NCBI GenBank assembly: GCA_041675205.1
Contig: JBAYUF010000004.1
Span: 29,898 to 93,897, forward strand
Length of the DNA: 64,000 bases
Source: Patescibacteria group bacterium
Lineage (GTDB): Bacteria > Patescibacteriota > Patescibacteriia > GWA2-46-9
Reading direction: 5' to 3'
Part shown: positions 6,915-55,048 of the stretch, piece by piece
Layout of the letters: each line of letters starts with the position of its first letter
How positions within the stretch are numbered: the stretch's first letter is position 1
Program-made: the position numbers and the translations under genes
The notes under the pieces: generated by a model
Seen by the model: the letters and a program-made list of their open reading frames with translations, nothing else
What the model was told of the DNA's origin: nothing
Databases searched by the model: none

Positions 6915-7460
6915 ATGCGTAAACTCATACTATTATTCGGTATTACCGTACTCCTCACGCTACCTCTTTCTAAAGTCAGTGCTGAGCAAATTGGGACGTG
7001 TAACTGTATTCCAACTGGTTCAGGAACAGCGCAGACTTACTTCAATTTGCCTGAACAAGACTGTGGCTTTAAAGAGGCAGAATTAACTGCCAGTTGCTCC
7101 TGGTCGCCAACTTCAGGCGCAGAAACAAATACAGGGATATATCCAACTGGTGCTGAAACAAAAACCGGCGGTTTAGGCGCGGGTAAAGCCGTAAATCTTT
7201 CAAACCCTCTTGGTGAAGGAAATGTTGATGTGAAGCTGATTATCGGCCGCGTCATTCGAACTACCCTCGGTATCGTTGGCTCAATTGCGCTCATTATTTT
7301 TGTTTACGGCGGCCTTCTCTGGACAACCAGTGCTGGTAACGCAGAGCAAGTGAAAAAAGGAACGGATACCCTACTGTGGGCAGCCATTGGGTTAACAGTT
7401 ATTTTCACAAGCTACACCTTGGTTAGCTTCCTCCTCGAAACCATAACGCAGACATCATAA
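6915..7460 (+). CDS. Small secreted protein with TrbC/VirB2-like (T4SS pilin-like) C-terminal double-TM domain
   Basis: It has a signal peptide (MRKLILLFGITVLLTLPLSKVSA) and a Cys-rich N-region. The C-terminus (LIIGRVIRTTLGIVGSIALIIFVYGGLLWTTSAGNAEQVKKGTDTLLWAAIGLTVIFTSY) resembles the conjugative pilin-like family common in CPR bacteria. Confidence 0.6.
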   Translation: MRKLILLFGITVLLTLPLSKVSAEQIGTCNCIPTGSGTAQTYFNLPEQDCGFKEAELTASCSWSPTSGAETNTGIYPTGAETKTGGLGAGKAVNLSNPLGEGNVDVKLIIGRVIRTTLGIVGSIALIIFVYGGLLWTTSAGNAEQVKKGTDTLLWAAIGLTVIFTSYTLVSFLLETITQTS

Positions 7461-7484
7461 TTTTCTTAGATCTTTGCAAATAAG

Positions 7485-7510
7485 CCTCGCACGTGCGGGG
7501 TTTATTTTTT
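7485..7510 (+). terminator. Rho-independent terminator after pilin-like gene
   Basis: A GC hairpin (cctcgc-acgt-gcgggg) is followed by the run tttatttttt. Confidence 0.7.
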
Positions 7511-7821
7511 ATGTCCCCTTAAACTGAGCAAGCAAATAGACGCTCAAAATTAGCTTATTATTGACAAGGGCCAATTTCTATGCCACTATACTTAGTTCTT
7601 TTTAAATTGCGCCTCCAGCGCACATTTGAAAAGGATGATCTTCCAGGACTTTGAAAAAAGAATAGGAAGAATGCCACGCAAACCTAGCGTGGTGTGCTGC
7701 GTGAAAACGCAGTTCATCATCATGAGGTAAACAATAACCCCGTGGGTCGCTATTGCGAACCCGCCACCACCCGCCGAGTACAAGATGCTCGTGCGGTTTT
7801 CTGCATACAGGAGAAAAACCA

Positions 7822-10056
7822 GTGACACAACCATACAGAAACGGCCCTCGAGGCCAAGGTGGCGGAGGTGGCGGACAGCCACGTCCTGCGGGTGGCGCTC
7901 CGGCACAACAGCCGGAACGCGTCGAGCTGCTTCGTGCAATCGCGAAGCAAAACGAGGCGGAAGAATACAAATTCGAAGTGGCGGTGCTGACGCGCGTTAG
8001 CCGAAACCTGCAGGCCCTCGGCCGGCGGGTGCTCCTGATGGTGAACGGCACCGCACGAAACGAACAAAGTGCCAGCGCAGAGACCGACCCAGCAACGGGA
8101 AGGATTTGGCTGCGCACTATCGTTGACGTGCGACAGCAGCACGACGGCGACCCCCTCGAGCTGCAGGTGGTGCTTACAAACACCACCATCGGTTCGAACA
8201 TCGTCAGCCTGAATCTCCAGACTGGCGAACCGGCTGCCGAACCGGCGGTAGAAATGCCACCAGCCAAAAAGGTGATGGCGTCAGCCAGCGCCGGAAAGAA
8301 GGCGCGGCACCACGTCCTGGTCTACCTCCTCGACAATGACGAGCAACCGACAACTGGCGAGGTGGTCGCACTGTACTCTCCAGAGTGCTGCAGTGCGAGT
8401 CGCTGCACCACGTACCAGATACCGGAGGTGGGCGCGGACTTGGAGTTTGCGCTTATTGACGGCGAATCCCTCGCCATCACCTTCGAGTGCCCCGGTGCCA
8501 CTCCGGCATCGGTAACCCTCCAAGGACCCGATAAAGTGCCGCCGGTAACCCCGTCGAAGCCAGCAACAAAGGTCAAACTGGTGGAAACCGGAACGACCTA
8601 CAACCCGGACACCGGTGCCTGCGCAGTCCTCGTTACGCCGCGCGCGTACGACGAAGACGGCAAGGGCGTGAGCTGCACCCTGCAGCTCACAACAGCGGAA
8701 CCCATCGAGATGTACCGTCTCGAAGGTGGCGTGGAGACCTGGGTCTCCACCGGCCAGCAGTTCACATTGCTGGTGTCAGCCATGCCGACCACCAGCTATC
8801 GGCTTATCAACTACCACACCACGGCAGTTGAGGTCGACTGCGACGTCGTCGGGCTTAATGCCGAGCTCGACAACAAGGAGCTGCCGGCTGCGAAGTCGAT
8901 GACTCCGTCTGGCAGGCTGGGCTGGCTCGAGGCCGCGCTGTACAGCACGGCTATCGGAATCGGCTTCATCCTGTTCGGCTGGATCTTCGTCAAAGCCATC
9001 ATCTGGATGGCTGGCGTGGTCTTGGCGCTGTCACTTGGTTCCGTTATCGTTGCCAACTTCCGCTCTCGTCGTCGTGAGGACGAAGAACCGGGTGGTGATG
9101 ATCACGAAGATGAAGAGGGGCGATTCAATGAACGGCTTTCAAGAAGGTCAGTGCTGAGCCGAACGTTCAACTGGCTCTTGCCGGTGCTTTGCATCATCGT
9201 CGGAGCGATTATCCTCGGATGGGTACTCACTCAGATTAGCGACTGGATGGCTGGCGTGGTCTTGGCGCTGATGCTTGTTTCCGTTGTCGTCGTTAGCTTC
9301 CGTTCTCGTCGCCGTCGTGAGGACGAAGAACTGGATGATGACTATCGGGAAGAAGAGGAGGAGCGAATCGAACGACCAGACAGGCAGTTCCGTCGGAACA
9401 AGACGATCGACTGGTCGAAACTGGTACCCTCTGACAACTTGGTGTGGGGATCATGGATGCTGGTAACGCTGCTCGTCAGCGCACTCGCAATCACGAACCC
9501 CGGGCCGAGTCAAGACGAGGTTGCGAAGGCCTACTCGTCACCGCAAACGATCGCAGTACTCGAGCAGATGGAGCAGAAGCAGAAACGCTTCTATGACCGC
9601 GTACTGCGCAACGAGGTTACAGAGACCAAGGAGAAAGAAACGAAAGAAGAAAAGGTCGCGCCGGTGAAAGAAACAGAACGCCGAGGAAACTGGGTAACAC
9701 TGCCCCTGGTAGTGTACCTATGGTTCTGGGCGTTTGCGCTCTTCATCCCCACCATCGGTGATGAACTGCGGGACTACGCCCACCGGTCGATCGATAAAAT
9801 CACCGGCGGATTCGACGGCGAGGTAAAGGTAGTCGGACCAGGAGCAACACTCCTGACCAGCCTCCTTCGTCCCCTTTCCGCCAAGAACAAGCCAACAGGA
9901 GAAAGAATGGCTGAGGCAGCAACCAGCACAATGGAAACTGTCATCAAAGAGGTGGGGATCGGCGATTTGCTTCGGCATATGGCCGCCAACATCTTCACGG
10001 ATCACATTTTGAAGGGCCGGCTGTTCAAACATCTGGTCCCAGGAGGAGTACGATGA
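7822..10056 (+). CDS. Hypothetical large membrane protein, GC-rich island gene A
   Basis: A GTG start at 7822 is preceded by AGGAGA with 8-nt spacing, and GC is about 62% against a host of about 48%. The N-terminus is Gly-rich and the soluble domain is Cys-containing. Two tandem TM-helix plus RSRRRREDEE modules are present, followed by further TM helices. Confidence 0.6.
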   Translation: MTQPYRNGPRGQGGGGGGQPRPAGGAPAQQPERVELLRAIAKQNEAEEYKFEVAVLTRVSRNLQALGRRVLLMVNGTARNEQSASAETDPATGRIWLRTIVDVRQQHDGDPLELQVVLTNTTIGSNIVSLNLQTGEPAAEPAVEMPPAKKVMASASAGKKARHHVLVYLLDNDEQPTTGEVVALYSPECCSASRCTTYQIPEVGADLEFALIDGESLAITFECPGATPASVTLQGPDKVPPVTPSKPATKVKLVETGTTYNPDTGACAVLVTPRAYDEDGKGVSCTLQLTTAEPIEMYRLEGGVETWVSTGQQFTLLVSAMPTTSYRLINYHTTAVEVDCDVVGLNAELDNKELPAAKSMTPSGRLGWLEAALYSTAIGIGFILFGWIFVKAIIWMAGVVLALSLGSVIVANFRSRRREDEEPGGDDHEDEEGRFNERLSRRSVLSRTFNWLLPVLCIIVGAIILGWVLTQISDWMAGVVLALMLVSVVVVSFRSRRRREDEELDDDYREEEEERIERPDRQFRRNKTIDWSKLVPSDNLVWGSWMLVTLLVSALAITNPGPSQDEVAKAYSSPQTIAVLEQMEQKQKRFYDRVLRNEVTETKEKETKEEKVAPVKETERRGNWVTLPLVVYLWFWAFALFIPTIGDELRDYAHRSIDKITGGFDGEVKVVGPGATLLTSLLRPLSAKNKPTGERMAEAATSTMETVIKEVGIGDLLRHMAANIFTDHILKGRLFKHLVPGGVR
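9001..9092 (+). repeat. Direct repeat copy 1 inside island gene A
   Basis: The core ctggatggctggcgtggtcttggcgctg and the tail ttccg.tctcgtcg.cgtcgtgaggacgaagaac are shared with copy 2. Copy 1 encodes WMAGVVLALSLGSVIVANFRSRRREDEE. Confidence 0.85.
9238..9332 (+). repeat. Direct repeat copy 2 inside island gene A
   Basis: The 28-nt core is identical to copy 1 and lies about 240 bp downstream. Copy 2 encodes WMAGVVLALMLVSVVVVSFRSRRRREDEE. Confidence 0.85.
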
Positions 10057-11147
10057 GCGAACACGGCGGAGGTCACGGCGAGAGTCATGGCCTCTTTGGT
10101 AAACTGGCGATTGCTGCAGGAGTGGCCATCGCCTTCGCCAGCCTCGTCGCATGGGCGACGGGGTGTTCTTTCACGAACGTGTTCGTGCCGATCATGGCAA
10201 TCGCGTTCATAACCGTTGTAGCGGCGGCGTTCATTCGCCTACCACAGCGCGCTTCGCGTCACTACCCGGGTTCGGCCGGATGGTGGAAGAGGCTCCTGAT
10301 GTTTGTCGGCACGGGTTTCGCCCTCGCCGCCATCGTCAGTCTGCGCAACAATGCTACCGCAAGTGAGGCGGAGCTACTGTCGTTCTGGAACGTCCAGGTA
10401 GCAGTAGCCATTACAGCAATGAGCGCGTGGGCGATGTTCGAGTTTTGGCACCAGCATGGTTACCGGCTCGCGGGAGCTGTCATGTTTGGCGTCGTGAACT
10501 CGATGCTTATCACGCTGATGTTGATCGGCTGGTTCCCTCTCACGATGCTCGAAACGGCCGGCTGGCGACCAGTAACGGATGCCAGCACTGCCGACATCGT
10601 TCGCGTCGACGACGAAGGAGTAGGCATCAGCTTTACGCAACGCAAGTTGTGGCGAGGCCGACTTCAAGATGGCCTCGACACGGCAATCAAGGATTCTGAA
10701 ACCCGTCTGAAAGACGGCAAGATCGGAACCAAGGAGGCATTGGACATTCAAACCAGGGCCCTCAAGGACTACAAAGAGGGCATCAGCAAAATGGAGGCGG
10801 AGCTGAGACTTGCTCCTCCGCTGTCGGAACGAGTGAGCGGAAAAGTGAAGGAGGTACTTTCCGCACTCAGGAGCACACCACAGAAACCTGCCGTATCAAA
10901 CCGACCGGACGGCGTTCCTGAGAACGCAGTCCGCTTCGTCCTTGAACCGGGAGAAGACTGGTGCCCAACCGAGAAAACGAAACTCGGCATCAAGGGCGAA
11001 GACGGACGCGAGTATGCGTTTGTCGACGTCTCGACCGGACATGCGCCGACGGTGCTCGACGGATCAGACCACAGTGGGATCTGGCCGTACTGCATCCGTG
11101 GCGGAGAGCTCGGCGCTGCCATCTGGGTGTGGCCGAGGTCCTCATGA
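10053..11147 (+). CDS. Hypothetical 4-TM membrane protein with C-terminal soluble domain, GC-rich island gene B
   Basis: The ATG overlaps the gene A stop (ATGA) and has a strong SD (AGGAGGAG). GC is high and no family is recognisable. Confidence 0.55.
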   Translation: MSEHGGGHGESHGLFGKLAIAAGVAIAFASLVAWATGCSFTNVFVPIMAIAFITVVAAAFIRLPQRASRHYPGSAGWWKRLLMFVGTGFALAAIVSLRNNATASEAELLSFWNVQVAVAITAMSAWAMFEFWHQHGYRLAGAVMFGVVNSMLITLMLIGWFPLTMLETAGWRPVTDASTADIVRVDDEGVGISFTQRKLWRGRLQDGLDTAIKDSETRLKDGKIGTKEALDIQTRALKDYKEGISKMEAELRLAPPLSERVSGKVKEVLSALRSTPQKPAVSNRPDGVPENAVRFVLEPGEDWCPTEKTKLGIKGEDGREYAFVDVSTGHAPTVLDGSDHSGIWPYCIRGGELGAAIWVWPRSS

Positions 11148-11320: not shown

Positions 11321-11614
11321 CTAAGCGGATTTCAACTGCTCATCAATAATTTTTAATTTTACGGCGTTTCGAATGTCTTCTTCAGCCTGCCGAATCGACC
11401 GCAACGCCGCTACGGCAGTCTCTAAATCTTGCGCATACTGCTCATAAATTGCTGTCTTCGCTTTCATGTGAGCAAGCATGGCGGAAACAACAAGTGCACC
11501 TCGTGCTGTTCGTGGCCCGTCCTGCACGTCTTCTTGAATAGCTTTCTTGAGGTCTCCGGCGTTACTGTTACCCTGGAGAGCGACAATGGTTTTTTTAAAG
11601 AAATCTGTAATCAT
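11321..11614 (-). CDS. Hypothetical small alpha-helical protein
   Basis: It is a 97-aa protein lying 10 nt downstream of the coiled-coil gene on the same strand, so the two probably form an operon. No family is recognisable. Confidence 0.5.
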   Translation of the reverse strand: MITDFFKKTIVALQGNSNAGDLKKAIQEDVQDGPRTARGALVVSAMLAHMKAKTAIYEQYAQDLETAVAALRSIRQAEEDIRNAVKLKIIDEQLKSA

Positions 11615-11623
11615 ATCTATATT

Positions 11624-12802
11624 TTATGCGGCTGTTGCCCCACTCTCAAGAGAACGCAGTGCGCAATCAATTACCATTTTCTCACTAACTCGCCAAGTCA
11701 CCTCACGCATGCTAGTGAGTGTTTCGACAAGAAATTCTCTTGCATCTTTTTCAGTACCAATGACTCTCTTTGCTAAGTACGGCTTTAAAGAAGAGCGAAG
11801 GACATCTACGGCATTATTCTTTTGAAGAGCGTCTTCAACAGACGTTTCAAAAAGCACTTTCGTCTGATCTATAATTTCCTTATCAAGCGCTCTCAAAACT
11901 TCATCGTCGACAGTTAACGCCTCACTCACAATTTTATTTCCCCGCATGGCTTGATACTGACGAATCACCTTCTCTTTGTCCTCCAACGTCTTGGGCTCAG
12001 CACTGTCGTCTAGTGCGTCTCTTAACCCCTCTCTGATGGCTATATTTGCCATACTCCCCACTCGTTCAGTAACACCAAGACTTGCGAACACAACTTCATT
12101 TAACTCTGCAAGTTGCGCCAGCGCTGCATCGCGGAGCGCTTCAGCATTTTCAATTTTTTCTACTTTTTCAAGCTGTTGCTCGAGCACTTTTTTAATATTT
12201 TTTGCATTGTCACCATATCGTTCAATAGCGGCGTCCTCGTTACTCGTTCGGGAACGGAAACCCCAACGCTTCAAACGCGACGAACCCTTTTTGGCCGCTT
12301 CGAGATCTCTCGCCTTACTTTGTGCTTTCTCAGCACCACCCAATTTTTTACATTCGCTCTCAAGACTCGCTATTTGCTTCGTAACTGCCTGGTACTGTTC
12401 AATTGCATGTTGCATCTCAGCAATGGCCTCATGATTTCCTTCACGAACATACGCATCGATTTCATCAACAATTATACCTTCTACATCACCACTCTTTAAG
12501 CCAACCTCGCGAGGTATTTCTTTTTTGAAATAATTCGATAAACCCTTCTTTACTTCGTTAACGTTATTGTACTGTTCAATATATTGTTGTAACTGTTCTG
12601 GCGACATTTCACTCCCCTCACGGGTTGCGCCTGCTATCGCCTCTTTGTCATCGTCGGGTAACCTATCAACGAATTCTCTAAAACTCTTGTCGTTTAAATA
12701 TTTCTCAAGCGCTTTCGCATCTAACCGCGTACCCCCTTCTTCTGCAGCTTTATCCGCACTTGTCGAATGCTCTCTACTTCGACGTCCAAATGGATTATAC
12801 AT
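11624..12802 (-). CDS. Hypothetical acidic coiled-coil protein (about 393 aa)
   Basis: It is rich in long E/K/Q helical segments. The start is taken at the ATG (MYNPFGRR) at 12802 rather than the upstream extension. Confidence 0.55.
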   Translation of the reverse strand: MYNPFGRRSREHSTSADKAAEEGGTRLDAKALEKYLNDKSFREFVDRLPDDDKEAIAGATREGSEMSPEQLQQYIEQYNNVNEVKKGLSNYFKKEIPREVGLKSGDVEGIIVDEIDAYVREGNHEAIAEMQHAIEQYQAVTKQIASLESECKKLGGAEKAQSKARDLEAAKKGSSRLKRWGFRSRTSNEDAAIERYGDNAKNIKKVLEQQLEKVEKIENAEALRDAALAQLAELNEVVFASLGVTERVGSMANIAIREGLRDALDDSAEPKTLEDKEKVIRQYQAMRGNKIVSEALTVDDEVLRALDKEIIDQTKVLFETSVEDALQKNNAVDVLRSSLKPYLAKRVIGTEKDAREFLVETLTSMREVTWRVSEKMVIDCALRSLESGATAA

Positions 12803-12879
12803 ATTATGGGCATTATAGCAGCTATACCTGCGTTTTTCAATGGCTGTCCCCTGATTATCGAGGTATACTATGTACACAT

Positions 12880-13632
12880 ATGGAAACAACACCATTCCCC
12901 CTCGGCATCCTTATTAACGCTTTTGTCACGAGCGTCGTCAGTGCGACGGCGTTTGCTTTTGTTTTGTTTTTAACTCGCCGCTGGCGACAACTCTCCCCGG
13001 CAATGCGCAGCTACGCAGTTTTCTGGCTCGCCACCAGTGTGCTTTGGGCAGCCGTTACTATTCGTTATCTTCTTGTGATTTTTGGCTACGCAGGCCAACA
13101 GTTCCACTTCGTAAACGAATTTATGGTTGAAACGGCAGTATTTAGCTCTGGCGTTGCTCTGTACTTCTACCTCGGCATGCAGCTCTTTAATTCAATCCGC
13201 AAAGCCCTTGCCTTAACTAGTCTTGGTCTACTTGCCATGGTGGCGGGGCTATGGCAATTTTTATTACCTGGCGGGTTTCACCCTGGTATTGTTACCGCTT
13301 TCACTGCTGACCCAGTGCCAAGCATCCGATTTCTCGCGATCTTTGGTTCATCAGCAAGTTTGGCGATGCTACTCCTCATTCGACACATTTTTATAACTCT
13401 GAAAGCCTGGCGAGGACAACCGATTGGTACCTTCCCGTATGCCCTCCTCTATTCGCTCTCGCTCATCATCTACGTAACGCTCGGCGTTATTGACCAAATG
13501 AAAATTCTTATCGATTGGCCGCTCGTCATCTTCCGTATTCTTTACACGGCCGTTTTCCTGTTCGCTTATTTAGTGCTTACGACCGAAGAAGAACAGCGAC
13601 AAAATTACTTGCAACAAAAAACGGTCTCGTAA
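12880..13632 (+). CDS. Hypothetical polytopic membrane protein
   Basis: It has about 7 predicted TM helices and is divergent from the coiled-coil operon. The start is taken at METTPFPLG. Confidence 0.55.
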   Translation: METTPFPLGILINAFVTSVVSATAFAFVLFLTRRWRQLSPAMRSYAVFWLATSVLWAAVTIRYLLVIFGYAGQQFHFVNEFMVETAVFSSGVALYFYLGMQLFNSIRKALALTSLGLLAMVAGLWQFLLPGGFHPGIVTAFTADPVPSIRFLAIFGSSASLAMLLLIRHIFITLKAWRGQPIGTFPYALLYSLSLIIYVTLGVIDQMKILIDWPLVIFRILYTAVFLFAYLVLTTEEEQRQNYLQQKTVS

Positions 13633-14035: not shown

Positions 14036-14110
14036 CGGACTCGACCGGATTCGAACCGGCGATCTTCTCCGTGACAGGGAGACGTGTTAACCAGGCTACA
14101 CCACGAGTCC
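14036..14110 (-). tRNA. tRNA-Asp (GTC)
   Basis: The reverse complement is GGACTCGTGGTGTAGCCTGGTTAACACGTCTCCCTGTCACGGAGAAGATCGCCGGTTCGAATCCGGTCGAGTCCG. It folds as a cloverleaf with anticodon GTC and a TTCGAAT T-loop. CCA is not encoded. Confidence 0.9.
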
Positions 14111-14175
14111 ACACTGAAGAGAACGAAAAGAGTATAGGTTGAAACGTTGTAATGGACAACTCTAACGAGATACTG

Positions 14176-14252
14176 CGGACTCGATCCCGTGTCGACGGGA
14201 CGATATCTCCGTGATCCCGCGAAGCGGGATTACCAGGCTACACCACGAGTCC
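14176..14252 (-). pseudogene. Chimeric tRNA-Asp-like pseudogene (unit 3)
   Basis: It keeps the first 23 nt (GGACTCGTGGTGTAGCCTGGTAA) and the last 11 nt (TCGAGTCCGCA) of tRNA-Asp. It also keeps the identical 27-nt upstream leader (gtccacactgaagagaacgaaaagagtat). The D/anticodon/T arms are replaced by non-canonical hairpins. Confidence 0.5.
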
Positions 14253-14369
14253 ACACTGAAGAGAACGAAAAGAGTATCACAAAAGAATTTAAGGAAACGA
14301 GTAGTGAAGCGGCGGCCGCTTGCTTACCTTAGCCTAGGGCTACACGGAAAACAAGCGGCAAAACAGGTG

Positions 14370-54061: not shown

Positions 54062-55048
54062 TCAGTAGACGAGCGTCCCGCCGATGACCGGATAGCTATC
54101 CGACACCGTACTCATCACCTCCGACCCTCCGGGTGGTACGTACGACCAAGAGAGCCCGCCCGTAGCGCCTTGCGTACCATCGATTGTCACGCCGAAGGTA
54201 CTCATGGCAGTCGCACCGCTGGTGTCGACTTTGACACCCAAAGAAACGGTGTTGCCAGCAGTAACAGTGAAGGGCGGGTCAAACGTTACCAGACTGGTTG
54301 ATCCACCCATGGTGCCGCTCCAGTTATCACCCGTGCCGATGGAACTGGCGCCGACGTAGATCACCGGCGAGGCATTTACCGGCACTTGCGCGCCGACATT
54401 GCCAGTCCGCGTCAGTGTCAAAGAATGCAAGGTGAGATTTCGACCACCTTGCGCCTTCACATTGAAGATGGCGACCGTCTGTCCAACGGCTGGTGTAGAG
54501 GCACCGACTGGGCTCGCCGCCGAAAGGGTGATGATGGGCACCACCGATTCGGCGAGTGTCGTTGTTGTCGTCGTCGTGGTGGTAGTCGTTGTTGTCGTTG
54601 TGGTGACACTGCTGCACTGCGCGGTGCAGCTAGTAACCTCCGCAATCAATACTTCGACATCATCGCAGACGAGTGTGCCGCACCCCACCTCGCCTTGAGG
54701 GCCAGGTGCGCCTTGGAGTCCCTGGGATCCAACGACACCAGGCAGACCCTGCGGACCCTGAATGCCGCAGTAGCGAATGACGGCGTTCACAGACGAAACG
54801 CCGTCGCTCACATCGACAACGCAGTCCGCCGGCATGAAGGTCGCGGTCGCGGTGAAAATGCCATGGCCGCCCGCTTCCCCCGAAGGGATGCCGTCGAGCA
54901 TGACCGGGAAACCAGGCGTGGCACCACTGCCCTTGATGATGAGCTGACCACCTTTGATGGCAGCTTGCTTCACCACGATGCCGTCAGCCGCTTGTGCCGA
55001 AAAGGCCAGCGCGCACGAAAAGAACAGAGCTATGAACGGATTCCGCAT
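54062..55048 (-). CDS. Secreted collagen-like (Gly-X-Y) and poly-Thr repeat protein
   Basis: A signal peptide, a GIQGPQGLPGVVGSQGLQGAPGPQGEVG run and a T16 tract (imperfect triplet repeat at about 54555-54607) are present. GC is about 60% and the SD AAGGAGGAA precedes the start. Confidence 0.6.
   Translation of the reverse strand: MRNPFIALFFSCALAFSAQAADGIVVKQAAIKGGQLIIKGSGATPGFPVMLDGIPSGEAGGHGIFTATATFMPADCVVDVSDGVSSVNAVIRYCGIQGPQGLPGVVGSQGLQGAPGPQGEVGCGTLVCDDVEVLIAEVTSCTAQCSSVTTTTTTTTTTTTTTTTLAESVVPIITLSAASPVGASTPAVGQTVAIFNVKAQGGRNLTLHSLTLTRTGNVGAQVPVNASPVIYVGASSIGTGDNWSGTMGGSTSLVTFDPPFTVTAGNTVSLGVKVDTSGATAMSTFGVTIDGTQGATGGLSWSYVPPGGSEVMSTVSDSYPVIGGTLVY

What the first reader, a model, noticed from the sequence alone, without database searches (positions are those of the whole stretch)
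8998..9335. Tandemly duplicated TM-helix plus polybasic/polyacidic (RSRRRREDEE) cassette inside island gene A
Two copies of about 92 bp share an identical 28-nt core. They encode W-MAGVVLAL-[TM]-FRSRRR(R)EDEE and lie about 240 bp apart. Each is followed by a further acidic stretch (DDHEDEE / DDDYREEEEE). A hydrophobic helix directly followed by an Arg-run and then an Asp/Glu-run, repeated twice, is a peculiar membrane-anchoring or charge-zipper arrangement. The DNA-level identity suggests recent intragenic duplication and possible length variability.
Basis: seen in the sequence. Interest (0 to 1): 0.5.

Follow-up and report, generated by a model that had tools for sequence, protein, structure and literature searches.

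The report
Duplicated membrane hairpin in orphan gene
An uncharacterised membrane protein of an uncultured Patescibacteria (CPR) bacterium carries an extra in-frame copy of an 80-residue module (two membrane helices plus an arginine-then-acid tail); this is real, but it is an ordinary kind of gene evolution.

Summary
The repeat is real. A 28-nt exact match (9003-9030 = 9243-9270) sits inside a tract of about 121/124 nt at 81.5% identity, spaced 240 nt apart and in frame. It lies in gene A (7822-10056, 744 aa). Three assemblies give identical sequence.

It is 80 aa: two hydrophobic helices joined by a tight turn, then RSRRR(R), then an acidic run.

Exhaustive HMMER found only four relatives. 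All lie in the same gene-order slot (ArgRS-LGT-T4SS_pilin-A-B) in four deeply diverged CPR lineages, and each has one hairpin. The window protein therefore carries a lineage-specific tandem duplication.

The first-helix halves are saturated at the DNA level. The tract has dS of about 0.3, which points to an old duplication plus later partial gene conversion.

Adding two helices leaves the orientation of the rest of the protein unchanged. The Arg run fits a positive-inside topology signal that the relatives share. The acidic run is not conserved, so a "charge zipper" has no support.

The GC-rich "island" is conserved in position across these lineages, not a recent import. The protein's function is unknown. 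This is a new member of a known kind, of low to moderate interest.

The parts
7822..10056 (+). Gene A, 744 aa (GTG start after AGGAG; an upstream TTG at 7753 is also open). Orphan membrane protein: R/G-rich N-terminus, beta-rich N-terminal region, six predicted membrane helices, C-terminal tail of about 100 aa.
   Evidence: ORF. The gene is called as P0001 in public assemblies. Coding-type GC1/2/3 = 0.635/0.448/0.674. The ribosome-binding site is visible in the sequence. There are four relatives.
8569..8886 (+). Beta-sandwich (Ig-like) domain with the family motif TPRAYDEDGKG. It is the only part modelled with confidence.
8914..9153 (+). Repeat unit 1 (80 aa): RLGWLEAALYSTAIGIGFILFGWIFVKAIIWMAGVVLALSLGSVIVANFRSRRREDEEPGGDDHEDEEGRFNERLSRRSV
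   Evidence: Register and translation. Its first helix keeps the family consensus, with 8-11 of 21 residues identical to the relatives.
9154..9396 (+). Repeat unit 2 (81 aa): LSRTFNWLLPVLCIIVGAIILGWVLTQISDWMAGVVLALMLVSVVVVSFRSRRRREDEELDDDYREEEEERIERPDRQFRR
   Evidence: Its first helix has drifted from the family consensus, with 4 of 21 residues identical to the relatives.
8935..8991 (+). Helix a1 (ALYSTAIGIGFILFGWIFV)
   Evidence: Hydropathy scan. AF2 models a helix here with a break at G-W.
8995..9060 (+). Helix b1 (AIIWMAGVVLALSLGSVIVANF)
9061..9117 (+). Basic run 1 (RSRRR) followed by acidic run 1 (EDEEPGGDDHEDEE)
   Evidence: Charge counts.
9172..9228 (+). Helix a2 (WLLPVLCIIVGAIILGWVL)
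9244..9300 (+). Helix b2 (WMAGVVLALMLVSVVVVSF)
9301..9363 (+). Basic run 2 (RSRRRR) followed by acidic run 2 (EDEELDDDYREEEEE)
   Evidence: Charge counts.
9003..9123 (+). DNA-similar tract, copy 1. The 28-nt exact core is 9003-9030.
9243..9366 (+). DNA-similar tract, copy 2. The 28-nt exact core is 9243-9270.
9439..9495 (+). Helix e (LVWGSWMLVTLLVSALAIT). Family motif DN..W..W ... T(H/N)PGP.
9691..9747 (+). Helix f (WVTLPLVVYLWFWAFALFI). Family motif IPT(I/F)xD(E/D).
10053..11147 (+). Gene B, 364 aa. It overlaps the gene A stop codon by 4 nt. It has N-terminal membrane helices and a C-terminal domain with two Cys shared by its counterparts. It is the conserved partner of A.
   Evidence: ORF. 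The GC3 of 0.674 is identical to that of A. Weak similarity to the gene that follows A in the other lineages. One further relative at 40% identity. No family match in four libraries.
6915..7460 (+). T4SS_pilin (PF18895) gene, the conserved upstream neighbour. It is followed by a terminator-like hairpin at 7478-7507.
   Evidence: Pfam E=5.1e-9, 36.5 bits against a cut-off of 26.6. Terminator-like site. Synteny.
7561..7821 (+). Conserved promoter-like site and long leader of gene A. TTGACA (7561-7566) and GTTCT (7595-7599) are invariant in all four lineages. About 105 nt of the leader is shared with the closest lineage.
   Evidence: Alignment A4. RNAalifold on two sequences. No Rfam match.

Best explanation
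**What it is.** The feature is a lineage-specific tandem duplication of an 80-residue module inside an uncharacterised integral membrane protein. That protein belongs to a small family restricted to one CPR/Patescibacteria clade.

**The module.** It is a helical hairpin of two membrane helices joined by a 4-9-residue turn. The hairpin is followed by an arginine run and then an acidic stretch.

**Topology (inferred).**
- Both ends of the hairpin face the cytoplasm.
- The Arg run next to the membrane acts as a positive-inside signal that pins the exit of the second helix to the cytoplasmic face.
- A second basic cluster (RLSRRS / RQFRRNK) pins the entry of the next helix.
- The acidic middle offsets these charges. 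It forms a probably disordered cytoplasmic linker with blocks of opposite charge.

**Why the duplication is tolerated (inferred).** It adds an even number of helices, so the orientation of everything downstream is unchanged: helices e and f and the C-terminal tail.

**History (inferred).** The whole 240-nt unit was duplicated first. The first-helix halves then diverged to saturation. A later gene-conversion event of about 120 nt re-homogenised the second helix and the start of the tail. That tract has since diverged to dS of about 0.3.

**Function (weakly inferred).** A and its partner B form a membrane complex that is encoded next to a VirB2-like pilin gene in this clade. What the complex does is unknown.
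For: **Shown**
- Repeat anatomy and reading frame.
- Six hydrophobic segments with membrane-helix scores.
- Only four relatives among 1.84 billion representative proteins. Each has one hairpin. Alignment A1 shows an 80-column insertion in the window protein equal to helix b1 + tail 1 + helix a2.
- Helix a1 matches the family consensus at 8-11 of 21 residues, while helix a2 matches at only 4 of 21.
- Helices a1 and a2 are still similar in register (p=0.0026).
- Divergence is mosaic: in-register identity is 32/90 nt in helix a, 58/69 and 43/54 in the tract, and 5/33 beyond it. NG86 gives dS 0.30 in the tract against pS 0.78 in helix a.
- Among conserved degenerate codons, 4 of 5 differ in helix a against 5 of 26 in the tract (Fisher p=0.017).
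- Positive-inside pattern holds across the family: 0-2 K+R in the turn against 4-6 K+R in the first 20 residues after helix b.
- In two lineages the N-terminal domain is a separate gene product with no hydrophobic segment or signal peptide. This fits a cytoplasmic N-domain and an N-in hairpin.
- The order pilin-A-B is conserved although ArgRS is only 47-53% identical between lineages.
- Identical sequence in three assemblies.

**From established knowledge (my own)**
- The positive-inside rule (von Heijne).
- Internal duplications are common in helical membrane proteins.
Against: - No dedicated topology predictor and no experiment was available. The Hessa-type scale values were recalled from memory and applied without position weighting.
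- AF2 confidence over the membrane part is low, with pLDDT about 45-60.
- The N-terminal beta-sandwich resembles Ig-like domains of surface adhesins, invasins and S-layer proteins. That would sit more naturally outside the cell and conflicts with the N-in model.
- One relative (P0004) has RWR in the hairpin turn.
- The loop between helices e and f holds 13 K+R, so the orientation of the C-terminal half is ambiguous.
- Gene conversion is inferred from only two copies in one lineage. Fast protein-level drift of helix a2 inflates the divergence estimates there.
- The functional link to the pilin gene rests on gene order alone, and a terminator-like hairpin separates the two genes.
Confidence: 0.65

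Rival explanations
1. Each 80-aa unit is a functional pore-forming or oligomerising element in the manner of a TatA "charge zipper" or a class II holin. The Arg block and the acidic block would pair within or between subunits. Duplication would then double the valency of a membrane-permeabilising or translocating assembly.
For: - The unit has two helices with both ends on the same side and a highly charged tail. This is the general layout of class II holins (my own knowledge).
- The charges are arranged in blocks: about +5, then about -11, then about +5 in each linker.
- There is a faint PHROG hit to a phage "membrane protein" family (phrog_3996, E=0.0083, 16.7 bits).
Against: - The acidic block is essentially absent in two of the three relatives that have the hairpin, and modest in the third. 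Charge pairing is therefore not a property of the family.
- The unit is embedded in a 744-aa multi-domain protein, and no endolysin or Tat component lies beside it.
- There are no phage relatives at the DNA or protein level.
- The PHROG hit is at noise level.
- The charge-zipper model itself was not supported by in vivo tests for TatA (PMC5601993, abstract seen).
Confidence: 0.07
2. The duplication is a neutral passenger. The extra hairpin and linker do nothing beyond being tolerated, and they are drifting.
For: - Helix a2 has lost the family consensus, with 4 of 21 residues identical to the relatives against 8-11 of 21 for helix a1.
- dN/dS in the tract is about 0.6.
- An even number of helices makes the insertion topologically harmless (inference).
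- All other lineages manage with one unit.
Against: - Both units keep uninterrupted hydrophobic helices, the Arg runs and the reading frame despite saturation elsewhere.
- This reading differs from the best explanation only on whether the extra unit is used. The present data cannot separate the two.
Confidence: 0.2
3. The two 28-nt cores act as a recombination switch. RecA-mediated deletion of exactly 240/243 nt (80-81 codons, in frame) would regenerate the ancestral one-hairpin protein, giving length-variable subpopulations.
For: - The cores are 28 nt, exact, direct and in frame at 240-nt spacing.
- Deletion between them would give helix a1, a chimeric helix b and tail 2, which is the architecture of the relatives.
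- 28 nt is near the minimum length for efficient RecA recombination in E. coli (my own knowledge).
Against: - Three assemblies from at least two samples, plus the NCBI MAG protein, all carry the two-unit form with no differences.
- The flanks of the core are already 19% diverged, which disfavours recombination.
- There is no short-period repeat.
Confidence: 0.05
4. The repeat is an assembly or chimerism artefact, or lies in a non-coding, GC-rich foreign insert.
For: Composition is anomalous: GC is 0.59 against 0.44-0.51 in the flanks. Shadow ORFs are present on the other strand.
Against: - Three assemblers give the same sequence across both island borders.
- The copies differ at 20 of 124 positions.
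- The GC1/2/3 pattern is that of a coding frame.
- Protein-level relatives occupy the same slot in other lineages.
Confidence: 0.01

Closest known systems
Internal tandem duplication of helical hairpins in alpha-helical membrane proteins (a general evolutionary mechanism)
   Same: The duplication is in frame and tandem. It adds an even number of membrane helices, so downstream orientation is preserved. Single-unit relatives still exist.
   Different: Only one extra hairpin is added to an otherwise asymmetric protein. It does not create an internal pseudo-symmetry of the whole fold. The unit also carries a long charged linker.
Positive-inside topology signals (Arg/Lys clusters flanking membrane helices on the cytoplasmic side; von Heijne)
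   Same: There are 4-6 Arg or Lys residues in the first 20 residues after the second helix in every family member, and 0-2 in the turn.
   Different: Here the Arg run is unusually pure (RSRRRR). It is followed at once by a run of 10-11 acidic residues, which the rule neither requires nor explains.
TatA "charge zipper" (Walther et al. 2013; challenged by Alcock et al. 2017, PMC5601993)
   Same: Blocks of opposite charge lie next to a membrane helix and could in principle pair.
   Different: There is no amphipathic helix bearing the complementary charges, no homology to TatA, and the acidic block is not conserved in relatives. The model itself is disputed.
Class II holins (two helices, both ends inside, charged C-terminal tail)
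   Same: A single 80-aa unit has this general layout.
   Different: The unit is not a stand-alone small protein. There is no lysis cassette, no significant PHROG match and no phage relatives.
NfeD-type [quoted passage not shown] (the IMG name for the identical protein P0006)
   Same: It has membrane helices.
   Different: No Pfam NfeD match appears even at E up to 0.1. The label is most likely driven by composition.

Membership tests
Unnamed CPR family of gene A (P0001-P0005) | Significant sequence similarity over the N-terminal domain and/or the membrane part | tested here: met
   phmmer E-values are 6.3e-46 (P0002), 2.9e-20 (P0003), 1.5e-19 (P0004) and 5.4e-5 (P0005). Shared motifs are TPR(A/G/V)(Y/F)D, LY..AI..G..F(G/R)W, DN..W..W, PG(P/E) and IPT(I/F).D(E/D).
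Unnamed CPR family of gene A (P0001-P0005) | Same genomic slot: ArgRS-LGT-T4SS_pilin-A-B | tested here: met
   The family is absent from more distant CPR loci.
Internal tandem duplication of a membrane hairpin | Two adjacent in-frame units with detectable homology along their length | tested here: met
   The tract is 81.5% identical at the DNA level. The first helices are similar in register (p=0.0026).
Internal tandem duplication of a membrane hairpin | Relatives with the unduplicated form | tested here: met
   All of P0003, P0004 and P0005 have one hairpin. The window protein has an 80-column insertion.
Internal tandem duplication of a membrane hairpin | The duplicated segments really span the membrane, with both ends on one side | tested here: inconclusive
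   Hydropathy and charge bias agree with this. No dedicated predictor or experiment was available, and AF2 confidence is low here.
Charge zipper (TatA-type) | A complementary charge pattern conserved across homologues | tested here: not met
   D+E counts in the first 20 residues after helix b are 10 and 11 in the window units, against 5, 1 and 0 in the relatives.
Charge zipper (TatA-type) | Salt-bridge ladder between the charged segments in the folded or oligomeric state | not testable with these tools
   The AF2 model is below pLDDT 50 in both linkers.
Class II holin | Small stand-alone protein in a lysis cassette or phage context, with a match to holin families | tested here: not met
   It is part of a 744-aa protein. 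The best PHROG hit has E=0.0083. There are no phage matches.
Pfam two-helix families (DUF4231/SLATT, RseC_MucC, DUF6232, DUF2207_C) | Score at or above the Pfam gathering threshold | tested here: not met
   All score 14-18 bits against cut-offs of 24-33 bits.
NCBIfam SCO2097_fam / FILTED domain | Score at or above the curated cut-off | tested here: not met
   22.8 bits against a cut-off of 110, and 19.9 against 40.
Recently acquired genomic island | Anomalous composition | tested here: met
   GC is 0.59 and GC3 is 0.674 for A and B, the highest among 47 ORFs in the window.
Recently acquired genomic island | Absent from the same site in relatives; flanked by mobility genes or att repeats | tested here: not met
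   The pair is present at the same site in four lineages, with raised GC in each. No integrase or flanking repeat was found.

The most novel reading that the evidence does not exclude
Genes A and B are the core of an undescribed, fast-evolving membrane apparatus of one CPR clade. It is tied to a VirB2-like pilin gene and driven by a conserved promoter and a structured leader. Its GC content has stayed high over deep time. The duplicated hairpin with its Arg/acid blocks would be a working oligomerisation or pore element whose copy number tunes the assembly.
Probability: 0.08. Interest if true: 0.55.

Novelty: new member of a known kind. Interest (0 to 1): 0.25.

Why it matters
The duplication itself is a textbook way for membrane proteins to grow. 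It is a clean small example: single-unit relatives survive, the added helices are even in number, and the two halves of the unit have different ages, which suggests later gene conversion.

The context is more useful than the repeat. The context work defines a previously unnamed protein family. The family is confined to one Patescibacteria clade and is always encoded after a T4SS-type pilin gene. It is fused in two lineages and split into two genes in two others, and it is persistently GC-rich.

This matters for annotating CPR genomes, where most such genes are "hypothetical". It also warns against reading every compositional outlier as a recent import.

Tried and rejected
**Searches that gave nothing**
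- The word-index homology search found only the query itself, both with the single protein and with the profile. Low-complexity words probably swamped the candidate list. The exhaustive HMMER search was what found the family.
- Phage DNA and protein searches found no match. The IMG/VR scan found no relative.
- The metagenome-contig scan returned only further copies of the L023-type lineage.
- The genome-contig scan with ArgRS found no close genome. The best hits were 36-45% identical, mostly CPR/DPANN. None of those loci carries the pilin, A or B.

**Family libraries**
- Pfam, PHROGs, NCBIfam and PADLOC gave nothing above their thresholds for A or B. The PDB sequence profile search gave nothing.
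- The sub-threshold two-helix families, SCO2097_fam and FILTED were rejected as compositional. Literature look-ups for FILTED and SCO2097 added nothing useful.

**Structure**
- The full-length AF2 model was too poor to search (mean pLDDT 50).
- The domain-only model matched only generic Ig-like beta-sandwiches.
- The afdb50 library was unavailable.

**Ideas rejected**
- Codon bias as the cause of the 28-nt identity: synonymous codons differ within a copy but match between copies.
- Microsatellite slippage: Tandem Repeats Finder finds no such repeat.
- Independent duplications in the relatives: none were found.
Full report
**1. The observation**

The region lies in a long + strand ORF (7753/7822-10056), which public assemblies call as a 744-aa protein starting at GTG 7822 after an AGGAG motif. 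I call it gene A.

- The repeat finder reports one long direct repeat, 9003-9118 against 9243-9358, with 240-nt spacing.
- The longest exact match is 28 nt, at 9003-9030 and 9243-9270.
- blastn extends the similarity to 9003-9123 against 9243-9366. This is 81.5% identity over 124 columns, with one 3-nt gap that makes RRR into RRRR.
- Only one other exact direct repeat of 20 nt or more exists in the whole window.
- Within each copy, Val, Leu and Ala each use two different codons, yet the copies agree codon by codon. The identity therefore reflects common descent, not codon preference.
- A MEGAHIT contig (ENA ERZ27247358), a Logan contig (SRR6484325) and a JGI contig (3300037067) are 100% identical over 6.2-8.1 kb, including both copies and both borders of the GC-rich stretch.
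- All four members of the 90%-identity protein cluster are identical apart from the called start.
- Tandem Repeats Finder finds no short-period repeat here.

**2. What the repeated thing really is**

Hydropathy shows six hydrophobic segments in gene A. Four of them fall in two pairs that are 80 residues apart. Each repeat unit is therefore about 80 aa:

- helix a
- a 4-9-residue turn around a conserved G-W
- helix b
- RSRRR(R)
- an acidic run
- a second basic cluster (RLSRRS / RQFRRNK) just before the next helix

The a-helices are also related. Their in-register BLOSUM62 score is 20, against -19 ± 12 for shuffles (p=0.0026), with G, G-W, I, I and L aligned at the same 80-residue offset.

**3. 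Relatives and context**

- The word-index search found only the query itself.
- The exhaustive HMMER search of 1.84 billion representative proteins found four relatives.
- All four are encoded in the same slot, DHH-IleRS-TyrRS-ArgRS-LGT-T4SS_pilin-A-B, in CPR/Patescibacteria contigs.
- The NCBI name for the identical protein is "Patescibacteria group bacterium".
- The lineages are deeply diverged. Identities are 47-53% for ArgRS, 45-61% for the pilin, 24-40% for A, and 25-34% over local stretches for B.
- In two lineages (L029/L030 and L032) gene A is split, at the boundary before the hairpin, into an N-domain gene and a membrane-part gene with overlapping stop and start. In the window and in L023 it is fused.
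- No relative was found in phage collections or in more distant CPR loci.
- No library names A or B.

**4. The duplication is derived**

Every relative that covers the membrane part has one hairpin. In the alignment (A1) the window protein has an 80-column insertion made of helix b1, tail 1 and helix a2. This is the signature of a tandem duplication.

Helix a1 keeps the family consensus LE..LY..AI..G..F(G/R)W.F, with 8-11 of 21 residues identical to the relatives. Helix a2 has drifted to 4 of 21. The relatives show no internal repeat of their own.

**5. Two ages within one unit**

| Segment | In-register nt identity | Third-position identity |
|---|---|---|
| Helix a | 32/90 | 11/30 |
| Tract, before the indel | 58/69 | 18/23 |
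| Tract, after the indel | 43/54 | 14/18 |
| Beyond the tract | 5/33 | 2/11 |

- Nei-Gojobori estimates give dS 0.30 and dN 0.18 in the tract. Helix a has pS 0.78, which is saturated.
- Among codons for conserved, degenerate amino acids, 4 of 5 differ in helix a against 5 of 26 in the tract (Fisher p=0.017).
- The simplest history is an older duplication of the whole unit, followed by gene conversion of about 120 nt. This is an inference.

**6. Topology and mechanism (inferred)**

- Across the family the turn holds 0-2 Lys or Arg, and the first 20 residues after helix b hold 4-6. By the positive-inside rule (established knowledge), the tails are cytoplasmic and the turn faces outward.
- The separately encoded N-domains of the split lineages have no signal peptide or hydrophobic segment. 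This fits a cytoplasmic N-domain.
- Adding two helices keeps helices e and f and the C-terminus in their original orientation. This explains why the duplication is tolerated.
- Each linker has about 5 basic residues, then about 11 acidic, then about 5 basic. The totals are 9 against 11 and 13 against 16.
- The acidic block is modest in P0003 and essentially absent in P0004 and P0005. It is a lineage-specific, low-complexity elaboration, not a conserved device.
- A charge zipper therefore has no support, and the model itself is contested (PMC5601993).

Caveats:
- No dedicated predictor was available, and the hydrophobicity scale was recalled from memory.
- AF2 is unconfident across the membrane part.

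**7. The "island"**

- A and B have the highest GC3 among the window's 47 ORFs, 0.674 each.
- Their counterparts are also GC-rich in the other lineages, with GC3 of 0.60-0.73. In L029 and L032 they clearly exceed every flanking gene. In L023, IleRS and LeuA have similar GC3 (0.63-0.64).
- The pair is therefore an old resident with persistently odd composition, not a recent import.
- What is missing from the closest lineage is the low-GC pair of minus-strand ORFs downstream (11321-12895).
- I have no tested explanation for the persistent GC excess.

**8. Verdict**

The feature is a lineage-specific tandem duplication of a two-helix hairpin with its charged cytoplasmic linker. It lies in a previously unnamed, clade-restricted membrane protein whose function remains unknown. 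The kind of event is well known, and the interest lies mainly in the family and its context.

- Interest: 0.25.
- Novelty: new member of a known kind.

Noticed in passing
window 7561-7700 (promoter and leader of gene A); L023, L030 and L032 upstream regions: A promoter-like site upstream of gene A is conserved in all four lineages: TTGACA, then a -10-like hexamer 17 nt later, then an invariant GTTCT. The window and its closest lineage also share about 105 nt of leader at roughly 75-80% identity. RNAalifold predicts three hairpins there, with two compensatory changes in the first. Rfam has no match. This may be an undescribed cis-regulatory leader, but only 2-4 sequences exist.
   Followed up: partly
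window 7822-11147; L023 10001-12325; L029 9063-12297; L032 9252-11647: Genes A and B keep GC3 of 0.60-0.73 in four lineages whose ArgRS is only about 50% identical. In the window, L029 and L032 this is well above every flanking gene (0.38-0.58). In L023, IleRS and LeuA are similar (0.63-0.64). This long-lasting compositional anomaly at a fixed gene-order slot is unexplained.
   Followed up: partly
L029 9063-10876 and L032 9252-10825, compared with window 7822-10056 and L023 10001-11299: Gene A is one gene in two lineages. In two others it is split into an N-domain gene and a membrane-part gene with overlapping stop and start. The split falls exactly at the boundary before the hairpin.
   Followed up: partly
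window 14090-14136 and 14232-14278 (features on the - strand): A 47-nt exact direct repeat covers the 26 nt upstream of tRNA-Asp(GTC) plus its first 21 nt. The upstream copy continues as a tRNA-like sequence that neither ARAGORN nor Rfam calls. It may be a degenerate or unusual tandem tRNA copy.
   Followed up: no
window 54062-55048 (-): A 328-aa ORF has the third-highest GC3 in the window (0.663). It has a signal-peptide-like start, a collagen-like GxY run and a run of 16 threonines. It has no match in Pfam at E of 1e-5 or below, or in NCBIfam at 0.01 or below.
   Followed up: no
window 11321-11614 (-) and 11624-12895 (-): Two low-GC orphan ORFs (97 aa and 423 aa, the latter rich in coiled coil) lie between gene B and the conserved 250-aa membrane protein. 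They are absent at this position in the closest lineage, so this is the variable spot of the locus. The 423-aa protein has a weak PADLOC hit to HamA/DUF1837 (E=2.6e-4).
   Followed up: no
N-termini of gene A family members (window 7822-7890; L023 10001 onward; L030 580 onward; L032 9252 onward): All four lineages begin with an Arg/Gly-rich stretch: MTQPYRNGPRGQGGGGGGQP, MASPKRDRGGRRPQ, MAGRAGRGDPGGGAGDP and MARHGRGGGQPQQP. This is a conserved low-complexity N-terminus of unknown meaning.
   Followed up: no
L023 7792-8139 (and L024-L027): The L023-type relatives carry a bAvd / 23S_rRNA_IVP gene (PF22296/PF05635) between ArgRS and LGT. It is absent in the window, and no reverse transcriptase was seen nearby.
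   Followed up: no
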